Position numbers and translations under genes: made by a program
Notes under the pieces: generated by a model
Told to the model about the DNA's origin: nothing
Databases searched by the model: none
The model's input: the letters and a program-made list of their open reading frames with translations, nothing else
Virus record (IMG/VR): IMGVR_UViG_3300046747_000117
Source: a virus
Length of the DNA stretch: 64,000 nucleotides
Reading direction: 5' to 3' (one strand)
Shown: positions 3,380 to 30,801 of the stretch, one piece after another
How the letters are laid out: each line of letters starts with the position of its first letter
Position numbering within the stretch: position 1 is the first letter of the stretch

Positions 3380-5553
3380 GTGGCGCCGCCGCCAGGTCCC
3401 GTCTGCCCGCGGTAAAATACTCGCAGACGCAGCTTGGCGGGGTCGTGGTGCAGGGCGCCTTTCAGCCCGGCGGTCTCGATCTGCTTACCCCGACGCTGCG
3501 CCTGCAACCTGGCGTGTTGCGTGATGCCATAAACTTCGAATGCGCGCAGCAGGGCGGCTATCGTCGGATCGACGGTTATGAACGGTACGATGGCCGCTTC
3601 TCGCCGTCCAACGCCTCGTTCACGCTGGTGCAGATTGAGGCCACGACCTCGACCGGCGATTTCAACGCGGACTTCTCAGCCGACTTCGATATCGCCGGTT
3701 TCGCCGGCATCGTGCCGCCGGTCGGTTCAACCGTCATTCAGGATGTGACCAACGCCACGGGCGTTGTCATCGCCGTGGAGACAGGTCCGCCGGCCTACAT
3801 GGTGCTGACCCAGGTCACGGGGTCGTTTGACGAGATACATGCCATACGCGCTTCACCGGGCGGCGAACTCATCGGTCAGGCGGTGCCCCTGACGGTGCGT
3901 CTCAGCCTGAAGCAGGCGGCGATCTACAAGGCACTGGCGGCGGACTCGTATCGGGCGCTGATTCACCAGGTGCCCGGCTCCGGCCCGGTGCGCGGTGTGG
4001 TCGGCATGGTGTTCGACGGCGTCGACCAGGTGTTCGCGTTCCGCGATAACGTCGGCGCGACCGCCTGTGGCCTCTGGAAGGCTACCCCGGGCGGCTGGAC
4101 GGCGGTGCCGTTCGGTGGCCTCGTCTCGTTCACCGCCGGCTCCGGCGGCGCCCCACCGCCCGAGGGCGCCATTCTGACGCAGGGCGGCGTGACCGCCACG
4201 ATCCAACGGGTGATGTGGCAGAGCGGCTCCTGGGCCGGTTCGGCGGTGGGCGATTTCGTGATCGTCGGCGCGACCGGCGCGTTCCTGGCCGGGGCGGCGA
4301 CGGTGGCCGGCGGCTACACCGTTACCCTGACCGGCCCGCAGGCTCCGATCGCGCCGTTGCCGGGTGGACGATATGAATTCGCCAAGGCCAATTTCGCCGG
4401 TCAGGTGGCCACGCGACGGATCTACGGCGCGGACGGCGTCAATCCGGCGTTTGAATTCGACGGCGTGACTTACGCGCCGATCCGAACCGGCGCCGTGCCC
4501 GATCAGCCGTCGCATATCACTTATCACAAAAATTACCTGTTCCTGGCGCAGGGTTCCTCGATCATGTTTTGCGCCGCCGGGCTGCCGTTCCGGTGGTCGG
4601 CGGTCGACGGCGGCGGGGAAATCGCCACCGGGGACGTGGTCAACGGCATGATCACGCTGCCGGGCGACCAGACCTCGGCGGCGCTCGCGGTGCTGCTGCG
4701 CGGATCGTTCTCGGTGCTGTATGGGACTGACCCCACCACCTTCAATTTCGTCGGTTTCAGCACCGGAGTGGGCGCGCAGAAATATAGCATTCAGAATATG
4801 TTCGATTTGTTCATTCTGGACGATCTCGGCGTGATCGCGTTGAAGACATCCCTTAACTACGGCAACTTCGAACCCGCGACGCTGACCAAGAACATTCTGC
4901 CGTTCATCCAGCGCCAGCGCGGGCATTTGCTGGCGTCCTCGGTCAATCGGGAGAAAAGCCAGTATCGGCTGTATTTCAATGATGGCTATGCGCTGTATGT
5001 TTCGGTGCTGAATCAGGAATACCTCGGCGCCACGCTGGTTCGCTACGCGCATCCGATATTCTGCACCGACACGACGAACCAGACATCACAGATCGAGGCG
5101 ACCTACGCTGGCGGCGTGGATGGGTATGTTTATCACCTCGATGTCGGGACGAGCCTCGATGGCGCGGATCTCGAGGCGTATTTCACCACGGCCTGGGACT
5201 CCGTCCGCGCGCCGCGCGTGTTAAAGCGGTTTCGAGCCGTGTCAATTGAGTTTCAGGGCGAAGGATACGCCGAGGCGCGATTTGGCTATCAACTTGGTTA
5301 CAATAGCGCCCAGATCGCGCAACTCCCGGATGTAGCCACGGTTCTTAACCTCACCAGCATCGCGGCCTGGGACACATTTATATGGGAGCAGTTCGTGTGG
5401 GACGGGGCGACTTTGTTGCCTTCTGAACTCGACATGACGGGGGTCGCGGAGAACCTGCGGTTTCAGATCGCATCAGGAACGAACTACATGGAGCCATACA
5501 CCGTGAATTCGTTCATATATCATTACAGTTTAAGAAGAGGAATGCGCGTGTGA
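3376..5553 (+). CDS. Tail/DNA-stabilisation protein (P22 gp10 / T7 gp12-like nozzle)
   Basis: Probable GTG start at 3376, coupled to the upstream stop. GGLDL...DAINFE...GGYRRIDGYERYDG N-terminus, beta-rich body, located among tail genes. Confidence 0.7.
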   Translation: MSGAAARSRLPAVKYSQTQLGGVVVQGAFQPGGLDLLTPTLRLQPGVLRDAINFECAQQGGYRRIDGYERYDGRFSPSNASFTLVQIEATTSTGDFNADFSADFDIAGFAGIVPPVGSTVIQDVTNATGVVIAVETGPPAYMVLTQVTGSFDEIHAIRASPGGELIGQAVPLTVRLSLKQAAIYKALAADSYRALIHQVPGSGPVRGVVGMVFDGVDQVFAFRDNVGATACGLWKATPGGWTAVPFGGLVSFTAGSGGAPPPEGAILTQGGVTATIQRVMWQSGSWAGSAVGDFVIVGATGAFLAGAATVAGGYTVTLTGPQAPIAPLPGGRYEFAKANFAGQVATRRIYGADGVNPAFEFDGVTYAPIRTGAVPDQPSHITYHKNYLFLAQGSSIMFCAAGLPFRWSAVDGGGEIATGDVVNGMITLPGDQTSAALAVLLRGSFSVLYGTDPTTFNFVGFSTGVGAQKYSIQNMFDLFILDDLGVIALKTSLNYGNFEPATLTKNILPFIQRQRGHLLASSVNREKSQYRLYFNDGYALYVSVLNQEYLGATLVRYAHPIFCTDTTNQTSQIEATYAGGVDGYVYHLDVGTSLDGADLEAYFTTAWDSVRAPRVLKRFRAVSIEFQGEGYAEARFGYQLGYNSAQIAQLPDVATVLNLTSIAAWDTFIWEQFVWDGATLLPSELDMTGVAENLRFQIASGTNYMEPYTVNSFIYHYSLRRGMRV

Positions 5554-25559: not shown

Positions 25560-25592
25560 AAAAGGGCGCGCACCCGACCTGGATGCGCGCCC
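25560..25592 (-). terminator. Intrinsic terminator closing the Cas7-like operon
   Basis: Minus strand GGGCGCGCA-loop-TGCGCGCCC followed by TTTT, immediately after array A. Confidence 0.75.
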
Positions 25593-25830
25593 ACCTCGCC
25601 TCGCCCTACCAAGCCCCGCCACGCCGGACCCCGCCTAGCCCCGCCGCGCCCTACCCCGCCCGGCCCTGCCACGCCTCACCCCGGCAAACCCGACCGCGCC
25701 TCGCCTGACCTGACCACGCCCTGCCTCGCCGCGCCTCGCCTAACCACGGCGGGCCGCGCCAAGCCACACCTTGCCTAACCGGACCGTGCCCCGCCGGGCC
25801 ACACCCCACCTCGGCGCGCCACGCCGAACC
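25591..25830 (-). repeat. Array A: 48 in-phase GGY-NN pentamers (putative guide RNA)
   Basis: Plus strand reads NN-RCC every 5 nt with no indels. 45 of 48 units are GGY and 3 are GCC. Begins 2 nt after the stop of the Cas7-like gene. Confidence 0.95.
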
Positions 25831-25832
25831 TG

Positions 25833-26450
25833 TTACGCCTCGGAAACGCTGTATTTCACGACGCTAAACCGTCCGTAGGTTGGTCGAAAATCGCCAACGC
25901 CGCCGATCCTGCCAGCGAGCGTGACGACCTCGTGCAACTGATCCTGATTGACATATTCCGGTAGCGTCACCAAAAACCTGAAGTCACAGGTCCAGCCGAC
26001 CCGCATCGCCGGGCGGATTCTGTTGATGCCAGCACGCTGAATGACAACGCGGCGCCTGTCCTCGTAATCCCAGTCCTTTGTCCCAAAAGACGCCAGCGGC
26101 GTCAGCGAAACGATCGCCGCCTTGTAGAGATCCATGGCGGACTTTCTTGGAGAGCGCGGATCTTGCCTGAACTTCGAAGCCTGGATGATCGCGCCACGCA
26201 GGTATTCCCCGGGCATGCAGATCATTCCATTTTCGTCGCGATAGACATACGACTCGACATCGTCGGTCTTTTTCGCCGCGCTGTTTTTCGCGGCTTTCCC
26301 TTTGGTCTCAACGCTTTCCGCGTTCCACCGATGGAACAGAACATCGGCTGACCCTCGGATCGAGACATTCGCGACGTACGGCAGCTCAGAGTTGATCGCC
26401 TCTTTGCCGCCATTCGTTACGTTATCTGTTATTCGTACGACCTTCGCCAT
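25833..26450 (-). CDS. Cas7/RAMP-like RNA-binding protein (Vipr-like candidate effector)
   Basis: 205 aa. CMPGEYLRGAI resembles the RAMP IPGSSLKGAL motif. C-terminal Gly-rich loop AGRIGGVGDFRPTYGRF. RBS GGGGGA. Flanked by GGY-NN arrays. Confidence 0.8.
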   Translation of the reverse strand: MAKVVRITDNVTNGGKEAINSELPYVANVSIRGSADVLFHRWNAESVETKGKAAKNSAAKKTDDVESYVYRDENGMICMPGEYLRGAIIQASKFRQDPRSPRKSAMDLYKAAIVSLTPLASFGTKDWDYEDRRRVVIQRAGINRIRPAMRVGWTCDFRFLVTLPEYVNQDQLHEVVTLAGRIGGVGDFRPTYGRFSVVKYSVSEA

Positions 26451-26464
26451 TTATTCCCCCTGTG

Positions 26465-26574
26465 AAACCACGCCCGGCCAGACCCCACCTCGCCTGACCC
26501 CGCCCAGCCTCGCCTTGCCAGACCCAAGCCCGCCCAACCGCGCCGCGCCACGGCCAACCACGCCGCGCCACACC
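26465..26574 (-). repeat. Array B: 22 in-phase GGY-NN pentamers in the leader of the Cas7-like gene
   Basis: 20 of 22 units are GGY (one GCC, one GCT). Ends 14 nt before the ATG. Confidence 0.93.
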
Positions 26575-26579
26575 GCGAG

Positions 26580-26628
26580 AGATAGCCTAGCCGTAATTTT
26601 TTGACCGGGTCAAGGGGCTAGGCTATCT
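26580..26628. promoter_or_regulatory. Inverted-repeat divergent promoter/operator
   Basis: 13-bp perfect inverted repeat AGATAGCCTAGCC...GGCTAGGCTATCT enclosing the palindrome TTGACC-G-GGTCAA. On the minus strand, TTGACC-N18-TAGGCT precedes array B. Confidence 0.65.
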
Positions 26629-26635
26629 TATGGTC

Positions 26636-26839
26636 ATGCCAAGGGTGTTAAAATATCCTGAAAGAGCGCAGTGCAATGTCGTCGCCGGCACGCTCGCGGC
26701 CCTGGAGGCGCGGTTTGAGGCCGGCGACGATCACGCGAAGCTGTTGCGACGCATCGTCAGCAATTGGATACGCGACACCCCGGCGACTAACTCCAAAGAT
26801 CGCCCGCGACGTGGCCCACCGGAATCGTCTTCGCGGTGA
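26636..26839 (+). CDS. Small ribbon-helix-helix-like regulator, divergent from the Cas7-like operon
   Basis: MPRVLKYPERAQCNV...LAALEARF...HAKLLRRIVSNWI has a beta-helix-helix layout. Alternative ATG at 26630. Confidence 0.5.
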   Translation: MPRVLKYPERAQCNVVAGTLAALEARFEAGDDHAKLLRRIVSNWIRDTPATNSKDRPRRGPPESSSR

Positions 26840-27923
26840 TCTCAAAGGTGATCGCCGACAGCGCCGGGGACGACAGCCACACCGAGGGATGCGCCACGCT
26901 GTAAGCGGTGAAATCGGTCAGCATCAGGGTATGATACTGATCGATCGTCAAAACCGGAGGTGGCGGTGGGGGAGGCGGTGTGGCTGGCGGCGGGGGCGTG
27001 GGCGCTGGCGGTGGCGGCGTGGCTGGCGTGGGTGGCGTTCCGCCCAGGAAGCCGATCGGCGCCAGATCCAGCACCGGGCGCGCGACCACCGTGCCCCCCA
27101 ACGGATTCGCCAGGCCGAACACCGAATTGCCCGCGAACGATGTCAGTCCAACGCCCGTTGGATTGAGGATGCCGACGCCACCGGAACGATCGTTGACGAT
27201 CGTGTTGCCGGTCATCGACACGTTGTTGGACGGGTAGGCCAGGCCCTCCTCGCCATACGCGATGATGTTCTGGTTCGGACTGTTCGGCCCTTGCTCTATC
27301 GCATTATCAGCCAGATTGAGATTGCCACCATTAGGAATATCAACAGTATAACTCGCGTCAGAATTGCCATCAAAAAGTCGATTATTCGTGATCGTATTGT
27401 TGGCCGCACGGGACTTTACCTCGTGACCCTGATTGGCGTCATGGATGTAGCTGTTCGTGAGCGTGAAACTGGCGACCATGCCGATATAAATATCGTGCGT
27501 TCCACCCGAACCTCCCACGCCATTGAACGCGAACTCGGAACGATCGATCGTGATCGAGCCGTTCGGATCGGGCGCGCCGAGGATGCCGTCCTGATTGCCG
27601 TGAAAATACACGTCGTTCAGGGTCAGGTTGCCAGACTCGTAGCGCACGGCTGCGCCGTTGGCGTCGGGCACCGTTACGCCAGAGATATCGAACCCCGAGA
27701 TCGTTACGTTGCCGCCCTCATCGATCATCGCCTTGCCGTTCGGCGGCTGGATCGTTTCGGTCATCACGGCGAACCCGCCGACCGCCATGAGCGTGATGTC
27801 CTTGAACACCGACAGGAACTGGTTGACGTAAGATCCCGCCGCGACCTGGACGGTATCGCCTGGCTGCGCGCGGTCGATCGCCGCCTGGATGTCGCCACCC
27901 GCCTGCACCGTCAGTATCGCCAT
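26787..27923 (-). CDS. Right-handed parallel beta-helix (pectin-lyase-like) protein
   Basis: IQAAIDRAQPGDTVQVAAGSY...NGKA...GAAVRYESG...HDIYIG...GHEVKSRA. Pro-rich linker near the C-terminus. Confidence 0.8.
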   Translation of the reverse strand: MAILTVQAGGDIQAAIDRAQPGDTVQVAAGSYVNQFLSVFKDITLMAVGGFAVMTETIQPPNGKAMIDEGGNVTISGFDISGVTVPDANGAAVRYESGNLTLNDVYFHGNQDGILGAPDPNGSITIDRSEFAFNGVGGSGGTHDIYIGMVASFTLTNSYIHDANQGHEVKSRAANNTITNNRLFDGNSDASYTVDIPNGGNLNLADNAIEQGPNSPNQNIIAYGEEGLAYPSNNVSMTGNTIVNDRSGGVGILNPTGVGLTSFAGNSVFGLANPLGGTVVARPVLDLAPIGFLGGTPPTPATPPPPAPTPPPPATPPPPPPPPVLTIDQYHTLMLTDFTAYSVAHPSVWLSSPALSAITFEITAKTIPVGHVAGDLWS

Positions 27924-28171
27924 GGTCCGATTCCCCGTGGTTGCCCGCGGAGTCTAGCGCATTTCCGGGCGCGTCATGCCCGTGTCATTGGACATTCATG
28001 CTGCGGCGCAACATAATGCGCCATGAGACACATTATTGCAGCCGCGATATTGGCAGGAATCCTCACGAATTGCGCCCCCCCCGCACCGAGCCAGGGCTGG
28101 GGGGGCGCCTTCCCGGGTAACCCGATCGCCGTCTCGGTCTGGTCCCCGGCGGTTGAGTCAGCGGGCGACGG

Positions 28172-28870
28172 TCAGGGACCGTAACGCCGCCGACGACGGA
28201 CGACGGCGAGACCGGCCAGGCCCGTTCCCAAAACAGCCAAGGTCATGGGTTCCGGCGTGTCCACGATGACCGGATTGATCACGCAGTCCGGACAGGTCGT
28301 GTTCACCGGGATTTCCTCGGAGACCAGCGAGTAGTTGTTCTGGCTCCCGACCCAGTCGATCTTCAGCGCGGTGGTGTAGTTCGCCCATGATCCCGACGTG
28401 AGCGTGGCTTCAAAACCGATGACGATCGGACCTGACAACAACCCGACCGGCGTCGGCGGGATCAGCGTGTTGTCGAAGCAGTAGAACCCACCCGATCCGT
28501 CGCAGCCGCTCGACGCCAGCCCGCCGGGGACGAAGTTGAACCCGTTGGCGCCCAGGGTCGTCACGCCGTTAACGCGAACACCGACGACCTGACCGCTGGA
28601 GGGGTTGTTTTTGGACACCGTGTTAAACGCGATGGCGTTGATCCCGGTGCGCCCGCCGCGCGTGTCGGCGATCGAGTTCTCGCCCGCGATGACCAGCGCG
28701 AACTGTTCGGTGAGCGGATCGGCGGTGGCCTGGGCTTCCAGCGTGTAGACCAGGCCCTCGGTGGCGGCGTCAGGCCCCAGCGTGATCAGCGCGGCATGGG
28801 CCGGGGCCGAACACAGCGCGCCCGCGACGACGCCGATCGCCGCCGCGGTCGCGAGGAGGTAAGCCCTCAC
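28172..28870 (-). CDS. PEP-CTERM sorting-domain protein
   Basis: Signal peptide MRAYLLATAAAIG...PAHA and C-terminus TPEPMTLAVLGTGLAGLAVVRRRRR. Confidence 0.9.
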   Translation of the reverse strand: MRAYLLATAAAIGVVAGALCSAPAHAALITLGPDAATEGLVYTLEAQATADPLTEQFALVIAGENSIADTRGGRTGINAIAFNTVSKNNPSSGQVVGVRVNGVTTLGANGFNFVPGGLASSGCDGSGGFYCFDNTLIPPTPVGLLSGPIVIGFEATLTSGSWANYTTALKIDWVGSQNNYSLVSEEIPVNTTCPDCVINPVIVDTPEPMTLAVLGTGLAGLAVVRRRRRYGP

Positions 28871-29538
28871 GCCGGGAGACCCGCATGCGTATCTTTACGT
28901 ACCCGACGCCGGGCGACAGCGCCCAGGCCGATGAGGCCCACGCCCAGTAGCGCCAGCGAGGCCGGTTCCGGGGCGGCGGTGGTGGACGACGCCACGCCGC
29001 TGTAGGACGCCGAGAAACTCGCCAAGGTCGCGTTGTCCAGGGCGAGCGCGGGCGCCAGGTTGGACAATGACAACGTGAAGGTGTTCGGCGCGGCGAGATC
29101 CGCCGCCGCGATCACGCTGGACGTGAGCGAGAGGGTATCAGGCGGGTTGGCGACGTTGATGGACAATTGTTCGCCGGTCGCCAAACCAAACGCCGCGTCG
29201 GAAAACGTTCCGGAAAGGAAATTAGTTCCGGCGCCGCCTGCCAACGACGTGATGGCGAACGTCCCGCTGTAGTGCTGCAACAGCGCGGGACCGATGCCTT
29301 GCGCGGCGTCGATCGATGTCGCGTTGAGGTCGAGGAAGCCGGTGGTCGGCGCGTTGCCGAACAGTTGCGTGATCGAAATGGCGGAGTCGGTGGAGAGCGT
29401 GGTGGCCGTGCCCGCGCCGTTCGCGACCGCCGTCAGCGTGTTGGTGTCGGAAACCTGGCCGAACGCGATTATTTGTGTCGCATTCGCACTGACAGACAGG
29501 CCCAGGACGGCGACCGTGGCGAGGAGGAGGTTTCGCAT
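28867..29538 (-). CDS. PEP-CTERM sorting-domain protein
   Basis: Probable ATG 29538 (RBS AGGGG). Signal peptide MRNLLLATVAVLGLSVSANA and C-terminus APEPASLALLGVGLIGLGAVARRR. Confidence 0.9.
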   Translation of the reverse strand: MRNLLLATVAVLGLSVSANATQIIAFGQVSDTNTLTAVANGAGTATTLSTDSAISITQLFGNAPTTGFLDLNATSIDAAQGIGPALLQHYSGTFAITSLAGGAGTNFLSGTFSDAAFGLATGEQLSINVANPPDTLSLTSSVIAAADLAAPNTFTLSLSNLAPALALDNATLASFSASYSGVASSTTAAPEPASLALLGVGLIGLGAVARRRVRKDTHAGLPA

Positions 29539-29656
29539 GATGGTTCCCCTTGTATGTTTGGGGGAGTTTAATGCGCTGGCGGTGATCCGTCTCGCGAAAA
29601 CGTCACGTTGCAAAAACAGTGGGTTATGCCGCGAAACACCGAAACGACCGACATAG

Positions 29657-29679: not shown

Positions 29680-29720
29680 TTTCGCTGGAACGGCGGGCAG
29701 GAGCGGGCTAGGCTAGCCAT
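29680..29720 (+). promoter_or_regulatory. Promoter of array C
   Basis: TTTCGCTGGAAC-N17-TAGGCTAGCCAT, duplicated with identical spacing before array D. Confidence 0.7.
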
Positions 29721-30006
29721 TCACGGCGCGGCGCGGTGTGGCTTGGCGTGGCATGGCATGGCTTGGCGTGGCTGGGCGTGGCTTGGTTGGCCCGGGTCAG
29801 GCTTGGCGTGATTGGGCTTGCCGGGGCGTGGTGGGGCGAGGCCCGGCGTGGCAGGGCTTGCCATGGCCAGGCTGGGCAGGGCGGGCCGGGGCGGGGCGTG
29901 GCCGGGTTCGGCGAGGCATGGCAGGGCGGGGCCTGGTCAGGCTTGGTATGGTATGGGAGGCGTTTACGCCTCGGTCCCGTCCGGCTTCCCGCCGGGCGGG
30001 GCCATA
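29721..30006 (+). ncRNA. Stand-alone guide-like RNA C: 46 GGY-NN units (29725-29954) plus 3' double hairpin
   Basis: 41 of 46 units are GGY, in phase. Tail GAGGC-N6-GCCTC then GGTCCCGTCCGG-N7-CCGGGCGGGGCC. Confidence 0.75.
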
Positions 30007-30140
30007 AGCGCGGCTATCGCCATCCTCAACTCTTGGTTATGTCGTTTGAGGTCCGCGGCCACGCGTTCCAGGTCCGCGATCCTCGCCCGCAGCGACTCGA
30101 TGGAGTCCTCCGATGATGCCTGATCAAACACCGCAACCAT
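29964..30140 (-). CDS. Small coiled-coil protein overlapping the array C tail antisense
   Basis: Translated by hand: MVAVFDQASSEDSIESLRARIADLERVAADLKRHNQELRMAIAALMAPPGGKPDGTEA. Confidence 0.4.
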   Translation of the reverse strand: MVAVFDQASSEDSIESLRARIADLERVAADLKRHNQELRMAIAALMAPPGGKPDGTEA

Positions 30141-30274
30141 CCGCCCCTATAGTCACGGGCGAAGAGATAGCGAAATTCCTGGAGATTTACCGCATCCTCG
30201 CGCGGCCTGACGGGCCTGCGGAGCCGGTGGGCAAGGTCGAGACGTGGCTTGAGGCGTTGTCGCGCAGATGAACC

Positions 30275-30448
30275 TCATCGTCTCGCTTCTGCTTCGCTGA
30301 CTAGCCGGGCGAGCGTTTCCTCGAGCGCGTCAAGTTCGTCGCTGGCGGCGCGGAGGTCGTCCAGCCTCAGCATCAGCGTGACATAGGAGCTGTTCGGGAT
30401 GGAGGTGACGCGGGAGTCGAAGAGGCGGTGCAGGGCGACGATTTTCAT
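30275..30448 (-). CDS. Small hypothetical protein
   Basis: ATG 30448, MKIVALHRLFDS...EAEARR (57 aa), divergent from the array D promoter. Confidence 0.45.
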   Translation of the reverse strand: MKIVALHRLFDSRVTSIPNSSYVTLMLRLDDLRAASDELDALEETLARLVSEAEARR

Positions 30449-30458
30449 TGGCGACAAC

Positions 30459-30499
30459 TTTCGCTGGAGCGTTGGTCGGGTACCGGCTAGGCTAGCCAT
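30459..30499 (+). promoter_or_regulatory. Promoter of array D
   Basis: TTTCGCTGGAGC-N17-TAGGCTAGCCAT. Confidence 0.7.
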
Positions 30500-30705
30500 C
30501 CCGGCGCGGCCAGGCGGGGCATGGCGCGGCTTGGCGTGGTTGGGCTTGGCGGGGCATGGCGGGGCGGGGCCTGGCAGGGTCTGGCGCGGCGTGGCTTGGT
30601 TGGGCTTGCCCTGGCGTGGTTGGGCGCGGTTCGGCGTGGCTTGGCAAGGTATGGTGAGGCTCTCGTGCCTCGGCCCCGTCTGGCTTCCCCCCGGACGGGG
30701 CCATA
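30500..30705 (+). ncRNA. Stand-alone guide-like RNA D: 31 GGY-NN units (30503-30657) plus 3' double hairpin
   Basis: 30 of 31 units are GGY. Tail GAGGC-N6-GCCTC then GGCCCCGTCTGG-N7-CCGGACGGGGCC. Confidence 0.75.
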
Positions 30706-30708
30706 GCG

Positions 30709-30801
30709 TCAAAACACGGAATCCAACCATAGCCTGGCGATCGCCAAGCCCGCGAGCCACACCACGCCGCACAGGAGCGCCAGGGCAAGGGCGGTCCTCA
30801 A
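30709..30801 (-). CDS. 30-aa membrane peptide
   Basis: TTG start overlapping the upstream stop (TTGA). MRTALALALLCGVVWLAGLAIARLWLDSVF. Confidence 0.4.
   Translation of the reverse strand: MRTALALALLCGVVWLAGLAIARLWLDSVF

What the first reader, a model, noticed from the sequence alone, without database searches (positions are those of the whole stretch)
29680..30705. Two stand-alone guide-RNA genes with a duplicated promoter and covarying 3' double hairpin
C and D share TTTCGCTGGARC-N17-TAGGCTAGCCAT with different spacers. Both end with GAGGC-N6-GCCTC followed by a 12-bp stem whose differences preserve pairing through G-U/G-C swaps (GGTCCCGTCCGG/CCGGGCGGGGCC versus GGCCCCGTCTGG/CCGGACGGGGCC). 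This is how structured ncRNA genes look. NN for C: GC GC GT TT GT AT AT TT GT TG GT TT TG CG CA TT GT TG TT GG GT GG GA CC GT AG TT AT CA TG AG GG GG GG GT CG TC GA AT AG GG CT CA TT AT AT. For D: GC CA GG AT GC TT GT TG TT GG AT GG GG CT AG CT GC GT TT TG TT CT GT TG GC TC GT TT AA AT GA. They lie 3-4 kb from the effector, on the opposite strand, and are interleaved with small leftward genes, so they would act in trans.
Basis: partly seen in the sequence, partly recalled or inferred. Interest (0 to 1): 0.85.

Follow-up and report, generated by a model that had tools for sequence, protein, structure and literature searches.

The report
Phage VIPR guide-RNA genes
The two repeat tracts are real guide-RNA genes of a VIPR system, a CRISPR-like, phage-borne RNA-guided DNA-silencing system first described in 2026 preprints, so this is a new example of a known kind; one of the two guides appears aimed at sibling phages.

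Summary
C (29725-29954, 46 units) and D (30503-30657, 31 units) are indel-free GGY-NN pentamer arrays. Each follows a two-box promoter-like block and ends in a double hairpin.

They are vrRNA genes of a VIPR system, described in bioRxiv 10.64898/2026.04.26.720920, .720927 and 2026.10.15.759431. The cognate Vipr protein is at 25833-26450 (-). It matches the solved SUSP1 Vipr (profile E 1.2e-14) and keeps the GGY-contact residues. Its model has a Cas7 fold.

The tail and promoter block recur in sibling soil phages. The tail keeps pairing through compensatory and G-U changes. The NN content and unit number differ even between phages with identical Vipr.

I reproduced the published 1-nt-skip targeting rule in this clade. 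With 8-unit seeds I found 130 matches, against 1-6 for other skips and 1-7 for shuffled guides.

The last 13 variable units of C match a small-gene start in sibling phages at 81-92% of NN. They match carriers of the same allele at 65%. No target was found for D, and no RNA data exist.

Three features differ from the published type II systems: long arrays, a two-hairpin tail and no vap1 homologue. This scan has found VIPR loci before in other genomes. I class it as a new member of a known kind.

The parts
29680..29718 (+). Promoter-like block of vrRNA gene C: invariant box TTTCGCTGGAAC, a variable 17-nt spacer, then the box TAGGCTAGCCA. The array starts a few bases later.
   Evidence: 10 distinct alleles in sibling phages keep both boxes and the spacing while the spacer varies.
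29725..29954 (+). vrRNA C repeat tract: 46 GGY-NN units with no indels, ending in the conserved GGTAT GGTAT junction units. Units 31-43 are a candidate guide block.
29957..30003 (+). vrRNA C tail: a 5-bp hairpin (29957-29972) followed by a 12-bp hairpin (29973-30003). No U-tract follows.
30459..30497 (+). Promoter-like block of vrRNA gene D, with the same two boxes.
30503..30657 (+). vrRNA D repeat tract: 31 GGY-NN units ending in GGTAT GGTGA. No target was found.
30656..30702 (+). vrRNA D tail: the same two hairpins, with G-U and G-C differences from C.
25833..26450 (-). vipr: a 205-aa minimal RAMP/Cas7-like protein, the partner that would load C and D in trans.
26465..26574 (-). Array B: 22 units in the vipr 5' leader, ending 14 nt before the ATG. 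It is driven by TTGACC-N17-TAGGCT inside a palindrome at 26580-26630.
25591..25830 (-). Array A: 48 units starting 2 nt after the vipr stop codon. An intrinsic terminator follows at 25564-25592.
29964..30448 (.). Small conserved ORFs between C and D: a 58-aa ORF (30140..29964, -), a 57-aa ORF (30448..30275, -) and an overlapping 52-aa ORF (30113-30271, +). Their homologues in sibling phages are the sites that C-type and D-type guides match.
29978..30012 (-). Site in this phage matched 22/24 NN by the C-like guide of sibling phage L083. It covers hairpin 2 of the C tail and the 3' end of the 58-aa ORF.
25864..25895 (+). Site inside vipr (the G-loop coding part) matched 21/22 NN by a 15-unit guide of phage L003, with the skip base on the wobble position. 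A second site at 26044-26075 is matched 21/22 by a 13-unit guide of L085.

Best explanation
C and D are two independently promoted genes for VIPR guide RNAs (vrRNAs). Each would give a primary transcript that starts a few bases before the first GGC unit. Each transcript runs through the pentamer tract and ends in a two-hairpin tail, for about 285 nt (C) and 205 nt (D).

By homology with the SUSP1 system, the steps are as follows. Vipr, encoded 3.3-4 kb away on the other strand, polymerises along the RNA with one protomer per GGYNN unit. It buries each GGY and presents each NN. The NN dinucleotides pair with double-stranded DNA that reads NN-x-NN-x, skipping every third base. The bound filament blocks transcription of the target.

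The targets appear to be sibling phages. The 13 variable units of C next to its tail match the start of a small gene in relatives that lack this C allele. They do not match the phage's own copy.

Shown here:
- the anatomy of the arrays;
- homology of the protein, and conservation of its contact residues by alignment;
- conservation and covariation of the tail;
- the skip-1 rule in this clade;
- the candidate target of C.

Inferred:
- transcription and RNA ends;
- loading by Vipr;
- silencing;
- whether the whole long tract or only parts of it act as guide.
For: Protein. The PDB chain 36pp 'SUSP1 Vipr protein' matches at E 5e-7 with the single sequence and 1.2e-14 with a 40-sequence profile, over residues 5-188. 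The SUSP1 GGY-contact residues H17, E71, R138, D177, W178 and R179 align to H40, E82, R146, D187, F188 and R189. The AF2 model has pLDDT 93. Its best solved folds are Csm3, type VII Cas7 and Cas7-11, at E about 1e-7 and TM 0.5-0.6.

Protein-array association. In the scan, GGY-NN arrays lie next to the gene in 76 of the 80 IMG/VR loci. They also lie next to it in phage DSL-LC04 and in the Felixounavirus Alf5.

C and D as genes. The two-box block and the tail are kept in sibling phages, while NN content and unit number change. D has 32 units here but 23 different units in phages with 100% identical Vipr. C has 47 or 48.

Tail structure and strand. Pairing is kept through compensatory and G-U changes. 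The array strand folds better than its complement, which fits an RNA of that strand.

Targeting rule. I took 268 arrays against 1.29 Mb of loci. Eight-unit seeds gave 130 hits at skip 1, against 6, 1 and 3 at skips 0, 2 and 3, and 1-7 for shuffled guides at skip 1. Nine-unit seeds gave 41 at skip 1 and 0 at every other skip.

C target. Units 31-43 match L107:6525-6562 at 24/26 NN, and only at skip 1. None of 150 unit-shuffles reached this score. Siblings L083, L085 and L103 match at 21/26. Carriers of this C allele match at 17/26, and their own site has a 3-nt insertion.

Sister guide. The D-like guide of L083 matches the 58-aa gene of L103 at 34/38 NN over 19 of its 22 units. The match is in frame, with the skip on the wobble base. 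Its self-match is 26/38.
Against: - No RNA evidence: no RNA run holding this sequence was listed.
- No target was found for D in the window, in 0.3-1.3 Mb of related loci, or by exact pattern scans of IMG/VR and JGI metagenomes.
- The C match covers only 13 of 46 units. All its target sites are homologous, so they count as one observation.
- C and D are two to three times longer than the published 9-16 unit vrRNAs.
- Their NN content is G/T-rich and partly made of 10-25 nt sub-repeats.
- In the wider 1.29-Mb scan, matches came almost only from short arrays of 10-19 units.
- The -35-like box is not sigma-70-like, and the consensus scan does not call these promoters.
- The tail has no U-tract, so read-through into the downstream small ORFs is possible.
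Confidence: 0.88

Rival explanations
1. C and D are bound by Vipr, but most of their length is not a guide. The long tracts would act as decoys or sponges that titrate a rival's or the phage's own Vipr. Alternatively they are a fast-evolving reservoir of repeat units, with only the tail-proximal 10-19 units used as guide. This partly overlaps the main reading.
For: In the wider scan, matches came almost only from arrays of 10-19 units. NN in the window arrays is 39% G and 30% T, with 10-25 nt sub-periods that suggest slippage. Unit number changes among phages with identical Vipr. In four of six long-array matches the matched block abuts the conserved junction units. Anti-VIPR solo vrRNAs that redirect Vipr to decoy sites are published.
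Against: Long arrays do hold matching blocks: L107 A at 25/26 NN and L103 A at 10/10 units. GGY fidelity is as high in long arrays (84%) as in short ones (80%). My target set is small and biased toward vipr loci.
Confidence: 0.25
2. C and D are 5' leaders of mRNAs for the downstream plus-strand small ORFs. In that case they are cis-regulatory tracts bound by Vipr, as array B is for vipr, and not free-standing RNAs.
For: The tails lack a U-tract. A 52-aa plus-strand ORF starts about 110 nt after the C tail. Gene callers predict same-strand small ORFs there in L083. Array B is a leader that ends 14 nt before the vipr ATG.
Against: The double hairpin is conserved with covariation as a unit at the array end. 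L107 lacks a C array yet keeps the ORF region. After D the next conserved ORFs are on the minus strand.
Confidence: 0.1
3. The tracts work as DNA, as iterated protein-binding sites such as a partition, packaging or origin element, and are not transcribed guides.
For: A 5-bp period is half a helical turn. No transcript data exist.
Against: The G-U pairs in the tail would be A-C mismatches on the other strand. Arrays lie next to a RAMP protein gene, almost always on its strand, in the related loci scanned. Homologous arrays in SUSP1 are expressed and co-purify with Vipr. The NN strings obey a skip-1 matching rule.
Confidence: 0.03
4. The tracts are coding sequence. Open frames such as 29736-30116 (+) or 30275-30772 (-) run through them.
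For: ORFs of 89-247 aa span the arrays. A public gene call covers array A in L085.
Against: A 5-nt period cannot keep a reading frame. Relatives differ by single 5-nt units (47 vs 48), which would shift any frame. The detector finds the period, not codon structure.
Confidence: 0.01

Closest known systems
Type II VIPR system of Escherichia phage SUSP1 (Vipr plus vrRNAs; bioRxiv 10.64898/2026.04.26.720920, structures 10.64898/2026.04.26.720927, PDB 36pp)
   Same: The protein is a homologous single small RAMP with conserved GGY-contact residues. The guides are GGY-NN pentamer tracts followed by a conserved structured tail. Tracts end in a GGTAT-GG junction in both. The 1-nt-skip matching holds, the context is a phage, and the targets are in rival elements.
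   Different: Protein identity is only about 28%. Tracts have 31 and 46 units here, and up to 148 in siblings, against 9-16. The tail is two stacked hairpins specific to this lineage, where SUSP1 has a pseudoknot. No vap1 homologue is present. Two arrays sit in the vipr 5' leader and 3' trailer. C and D are separate promoter-driven genes 3-4 kb away on the other strand.
Solo vrRNAs of F5 satellites and of vipr-null SUSP1-like phages (bioRxiv 10.64898/2026.10.15.759431)
   Same: They are stand-alone vrRNA genes away from vipr that act in trans on a Vipr protein. Their targets include relatives' vipr genes and vrRNA tail junctions. I see both kinds of match in this clade.
   Different: Here the phage carries its own vipr, so C and D are extra guides of a complete system and not orphans. 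No decoy target such as REP elements was identified.
VIPR 'staggered' or contiguous multi-guide arrays (fig. S18 of 10.64898/2026.04.26.720920)
   Same: These are long uninterrupted pentamer tracts that hold more than one guide. Sub-blocks of long arrays in siblings match distinct targets.
   Different: I could not see the figure or supplement. C and D stay in one phase with a single terminal junction and tail, so boundaries between guides, if any, are not marked.
Class 1 CRISPR-Cas backbone (Cas7/Csm3 on crRNA)
   Same: The fold is the same. The protein is inferred to polymerise on RNA with a fixed period and present bases for pairing.
   Different: There are no CRISPR repeats, no spacers and no other cas genes in the window. 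The period is 5 nt with 2 presented bases, against 6 nt with 5. The target is dsDNA read with gaps.

Membership tests
VIPR (Vipr + vrRNA) | A small stand-alone RAMP protein homologous to Vipr, with an RRM core, a G-loop and a thumb | tested here: met
   PDB 36pp SUSP1 Vipr matches at E 5e-7 (single sequence) and 1.2e-14 (profile). The AF2 model has pLDDT 93, with Csm3 and Cas7 as top folds.
VIPR (Vipr + vrRNA) | Residues that read GGY (SUSP1 H17, E71, R138, D177, W178, R179) | tested here: met
   They align to H40, E82, R146, D187, F188 and R189. W to F keeps an aromatic side chain.
VIPR (Vipr + vrRNA) | Non-coding tracts of tandem GGY-NN pentamers with conserved GGY and hypervariable NN | tested here: met
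   41/46 units of C and 30/31 units of D are GGY, with no indels. NN and unit number differ among phages with identical Vipr.
VIPR (Vipr + vrRNA) | A conserved structured 3' tail after the repeat tract | tested here: met
   The two-hairpin tail gives 14 covariance-model hits at E<1e-21 in the lineage, with 99.3% pairing and compensatory changes. It is a different structure from the SUSP1 pseudoknot.
VIPR (Vipr + vrRNA) | NN dinucleotides match DNA targets with one skipped base per unit | tested here: met
   For the clade, 8-unit seeds gave 130 hits at skip 1 against 1-6 at other skips and 1-7 for shuffles. C units 31-43 match at 24/26 NN at skip 1 only, and 0 of 150 shuffles reach the score. 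For D alone the test is inconclusive, because no target was found.
VIPR (Vipr + vrRNA) | vrRNAs are expressed and co-purify with Vipr | not testable with these tools
   No RNA run holding the stretch was listed. The DNA is in at least 24 soil and rhizosphere metagenome runs.
VIPR type II (SUSP1 / P. fulva) | vipr-vap1 two-gene operon | tested here: not met
   tblastn finds no homologue of Alf5 gp092 or of the DSL-LC04 downstream gene in the window. Array A follows the vipr stop codon directly.
VIPR type II (SUSP1 / P. fulva) | vrRNAs of 9-16 units (<100 nt) | tested here: not met
   C has 46 units and D has 31. Across the clade the median is 17.5 units, 62 of 248 arrays have 30 or more, and the maximum is 148.
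CRISPR-Cas | A CRISPR repeat-spacer array and cas gene set | tested here: not met
   No such repeats appear in the tandem-repeat scan, and there are no Rfam hits. PADLOC gives no hit for the protein.

The most novel reading that the evidence does not exclude
In this soil-phage lineage the pentamer tracts would be more than single guides. They would be long, fast-evolving multi-guide cassettes of up to 148 units, exchanged and resized in steps of 5 nt between near-identical phages. Sibling phages would use them to silence each other's alleles of the same small-gene region and each other's vipr and vrRNA tails. Array B, which ends 14 nt before the vipr start codon, would in addition let Vipr throttle its own translation. 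Together this would be an allele-specific mutual-exclusion system with built-in autoregulation, which goes beyond what the preprints describe.
Probability: 0.25. Interest if true: 0.55.

Novelty: new member of a known kind. Interest (0 to 1): 0.35.

Why it matters
VIPR is a very recent discovery, described so far mostly from E. coli and Pseudomonas phages. This locus extends it to an uncultured high-GC soil and rhizosphere phage lineage. It also gives an independent computational replication of the gapped (1-nt-skip) recognition rule in a clade only about 28% identical to SUSP1.

The locus shows features that the characterised type II systems do not:
- guide tracts several times longer;
- a different tail structure;
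- separately promoted guide genes in a Vipr-positive phage;
- guide alleles that differ among phages with identical Vipr and appear aimed at each other.

Those points are useful for defining what a vrRNA minimally needs and how guide repertoires evolve. They do not change the picture of how the system works.

Tried and rejected
- Rfam (gathering threshold) and tRNA scans of the window found nothing.
- Pfam, NCBIfam and PADLOC gave no hit for the protein. Only phrog_4652 (unknown function) matched.
- The first literature searches, on pentanucleotide repeats and on Felixounavirus ncRNA, missed the relevant papers. The PDB hit led to them.
- No whole genome is held for this window, so the host and host targets could not be searched.
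- Self-targeting was tested: no match of A-D within the window exceeded the shuffled-guide level.
- Exact pattern scans were run for C units 15-26, D units 1-11, D units 2-11 and D units 20-29. They found nothing in IMG/VR or JGI metagenomes, or only chance hits that do not extend.
- The 8-unit core of C found in IMG/VR gave chance hits only.
- RNA expression was not testable: no RNA run was listed.
- The tail model finds nothing significant in about 90 more distant vipr loci, so it cannot be used as a general vrRNA detector.
- I first thought of a TRAP-like or CsrB-like protein-sponge RNA (recalled from memory). I set it aside once the Vipr homology and the skip-1 matches appeared.
- The VIPR type (I-VII) could not be assigned, because the paper's supplement is not held.

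Full report
**What is there**

The region 29680-30705 holds two tracts with a strict 5-nt period. C (29725-29954) has 46 GGY-NN units and D (30503-30657) has 31, with no indels. GGY is kept in 41/46 units of C and 30/31 units of D, and most exceptions are GCC.

A simple period-5 detector finds only four such tracts in the 64 kb window. They are C, D and two on the minus strand. Array B (26465-26574) lies in the leader of a 205-aa gene (26450..25833, minus). Array A (25591-25830) follows directly after that gene's stop codon and runs into an intrinsic terminator.

C and D are each preceded by TTTCGCTGGARC-N17-TAGGCTA. This block occurs twice in the window and in 0 of 100 shuffles. The GGCTAGGCTA box occurs exactly (no mismatch) at only four places in the window. 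All four are at the starts of array transcription units or at the divergent partner of array B.

Each tract ends in a 5-bp hairpin followed by a 12-bp hairpin. Folding energies are -40.6 and -36.0 kcal/mol, with z-scores of -6.5 and -5.0.

**Identification**

The 205-aa protein has no Pfam, NCBIfam or PADLOC match. It belongs to a very large unnamed family:
- 7489 relatives in one search and 1171 50%-identity clusters in another;
- phrog_4652;
- a homologue in each of more than 100 Felix-O1-like phages.

It matches the solved chain 36pp, 'SUSP1 Vipr protein', at E 5e-7 alone and at E 1.2e-14 as a 40-sequence profile, over residues 5-188. That name led to three 2026 preprints. [quoted passage not shown]
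- A minimal RAMP protein, Vipr, polymerises on vrRNAs made of alternating GGY and NN.
- It hides GGY and presents NN.
- The NN bases pair with dsDNA while every third target base is skipped.
- The result is transcriptional silencing of rival phages, satellites and other VIPR systems.

The residues reported to read GGY in SUSP1 Vipr are H17, E71, R138, D177, W178 and R179. They align to H40, E82, R146, D187, F188 and R189 here. An AlphaFold model (pLDDT 93.1) has Csm3, type VII Cas7 and Cas7-11 as its best solved folds, at E about 1e-7 and TM 0.5-0.6.

**Association of protein and arrays**

The same kind of array sits next to the gene in phage DSL-LC04 and in the low-GC Felixounavirus Alf5. In the scan it also sits next to the gene in 76 of the 80 IMG/VR loci that encode relatives, nearly always on the gene's strand.

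In this clade, 248 distinct arrays have a median of 17.5 units. Sixty-two have 30 or more units, and the longest has 148.

**C and D as genes**

Sibling phages are those with Vipr 87-100% identical: L083, L085, L103 and L105-L108. They carry C-like and D-like tracts in the same place, on the strand opposite to vipr. They have the same two promoter-like boxes, and the 17-nt spacer between the boxes varies across 10 distinct alleles. Two conserved boxes at fixed spacing with a free spacer is what a promoter looks like. The upstream box is not sigma-70-like, however, and the consensus scan does not call it.

A covariance model of the tail finds 14 copies at E<1e-21. All are in this lineage, and none is in about 90 more distant vipr loci. 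In the 9 distinct tails:
- 99.3% of cells pair;
- two pairs switch between A-U and G-C on both sides;
- five pairs change on one side through G-U;
- sliding the partner by 1-3 columns drops pairing to 35-53%.

The G-U pairs would be A-C mismatches on the other strand, and the array strand folds 3-9 kcal/mol better than its complement. Both points fit an RNA of the array strand.

While boxes and tail are conserved, the tracts are not. Among phages with 100% identical Vipr:
- D has 32 units here but 23 mostly different units, with a different tail allele, in L107 and L108;
- C has 47 or 48 units by the detector's count;
- B has 22, 41 or 28 units;
- A has 48, 45 or 77 units.

Single-unit (5-nt) differences rule out coding.

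**Does the published targeting rule hold here?**

I took all 268 arrays (6670 units) found in 102 sequences and looked for spaced-seed matches in the same 1.29 Mb, with the arrays masked.

| Seed length | Skip 0 | Skip 1 | Skip 2 | Skip 3 | Unit-shuffled guides |
|---|---|---|---|---|---|
| 8 units | 6 | 130 | 1 | 3 | 0-7 (1-7 at skip 1) |
| 9 units | 0 | 41 | 0 | 0 | 0-2 (0 at skip 1) |

This is an independent replication of the 1-nt-skip rule in a clade about 28% identical to SUSP1.

The matches include the following:
- A 15-unit guide of L003 fits the G-loop-coding end of vipr in about 60 loci but not its own. In this window it matches 25864-25895 at 21/22 NN, with the skip on the wobble base.
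- A 13-unit guide of L085 fits mid-vipr in relatives, including this window at 26044-26075 (21/22 NN).

**Targets of C and D**

Neither tract matches anything in its own window above the shuffled level. This agrees with the lack of self-targeting reported in the paper.

In a scan restricted to the lineage, shuffled-guide maxima were 12-14. C units 31-43 are the 13 variable units next to the GGCTT GGTAT GGTAT end of the tract and the tail. They match L107:6525-6562 at 24/26 NN. The score of 18 is reached only at skip 1; the other skips give 10-12. None of 150 unit-shuffles of C reached it, and the best was 16, once.

The site is the start of a small gene region. It is homologous to window ORF58 (30140..29964, minus) and to the overlapping plus-strand ORF52 (30113-30271). 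The skipped bases fall on the wobble positions of the plus-strand frame.

At the homologous site, NN matches are as follows:
- L107: 24/26;
- L083, L085 and L103: 21/26;
- the four carriers of this C allele (window, L105, L106, L108): 17/26.

The carriers' own site has a 3-nt insertion and substitutions. These sites are homologous, so they count as one observation, not four.

Sister guides behave the same way:
- The 22-unit D-like guide of L083 matches the 58-aa gene of L103 at 34/38 NN over units 1-19. The match is in frame, with the skip on the wobble base. Its self-match is 26/38.
- Units 8-19 of the C-like guide of L083 match this window at 29978-30012 at 22/24 NN. That site is hairpin 2 of the C tail and the 3' end of ORF58. 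Its self-match is 17/24.

For D of this window I found no target.

**What remains open**

No RNA data exist for this phage. It is present in at least 24 soil and rhizosphere metagenome runs, but no RNA run was listed. Transcription, RNA ends and loading are therefore inferred by homology.

C and D are two to three times longer than the 9-16 unit vrRNAs characterised so far. Their NN content is G/T-rich with 10-25 nt sub-repeats. In the wider scan most matches came from short arrays. It is therefore possible that only the tail-proximal block guides, and that the rest is reservoir, decoy or precursor. Long arrays in siblings do hold matching blocks: L107 A at 25/26 NN, and L103 A at 10/10 units against array-less relatives L119 and L120.

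The tails lack a U-tract, so read-through into the downstream small ORFs cannot be excluded. There is no vap1 homologue. A 69-aa ORF divergent from vipr is conserved in the lineage and could be a regulator.

**Verdict**

However, the system was published in 2026 as VIPR, including stand-alone trans-acting vrRNAs. This scan has already met VIPR loci in several other genomes. I class it as a new member of a known kind with lineage-specific variations.

Noticed in passing
window 26465-26574 (-) and 26450: Array B is the 5' leader of vipr and ends 14 nt before the ATG, next to the ribosome-binding site. A Vipr filament on its own leader could throttle vipr translation.
   Followed up: no
window 26580-26839: A palindrome (TAGCCTAGCC ... 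GGCTAGGCTA around TTGACC-G-GGTCAA) forms a divergent promoter region between array B and a 69-aa ORF (26630-26839, +). The ORF has no Pfam hit. It is conserved in all sibling phages and weakly in L004. It could be the regulator that reads the GGCTAGGCTA box shared with C and D.
   Followed up: partly
window 25864-25895 and 26044-26075 (inside vipr): This phage's own vipr gene is matched 21/22 NN by short guides of two other phages, L003:8630-8704 and L085:10630-10694. Neither guide matches its own phage's vipr as well. The phage therefore looks like a target as well as an attacker.
   Followed up: partly
L002 (Alf5) 2540-2740 and 3930-4145; window array ends; L083, L085: Repeat tracts very often end in GGTAT followed by GG(T)GA or GG. 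GGTAT is among the last three units in 53 of 248 arrays, against 1.4% of inner units. It is seen from E. coli Felixounaviruses to this high-GC lineage. The same motif also occurs inside some very long arrays, where it may mark joins between guides.
   Followed up: partly
L118-L122 (IMG/VR relatives found through the PEP-CTERM gene): Related phages that share the PEP-CTERM gene have no pentamer arrays within 5 kb of it. Units 114-123 of array A in sibling L103 match L119 and L120 at 6149 in 10 of 10 units. Array-less relatives therefore seem to be targets.
   Followed up: partly
window 26787-29613 (-): Three genes lie between vipr and C on the vipr strand: a beta-helix protein (378 aa) and two PEP-CTERM proteins (232 and 248 aa; Pfam PF13229 and PF07589). 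PEP-CTERM proteins need a host exosortase and are unusual phage cargo.
   Followed up: no
L001 6001-6618; L085 10761-11510: Two public annotations are misleading. The Vipr homologue of phage DSL-LC04 is labelled 'helix-turn-helix transcriptional regulator'. A 249-aa 'gene' is called straight through pentamer array A in a sibling contig.
   Followed up: no
In siblings with 128-148 units the GCC units are not regularly spaced, so I found no support for a fixed 13-unit module.
   Followed up: partly
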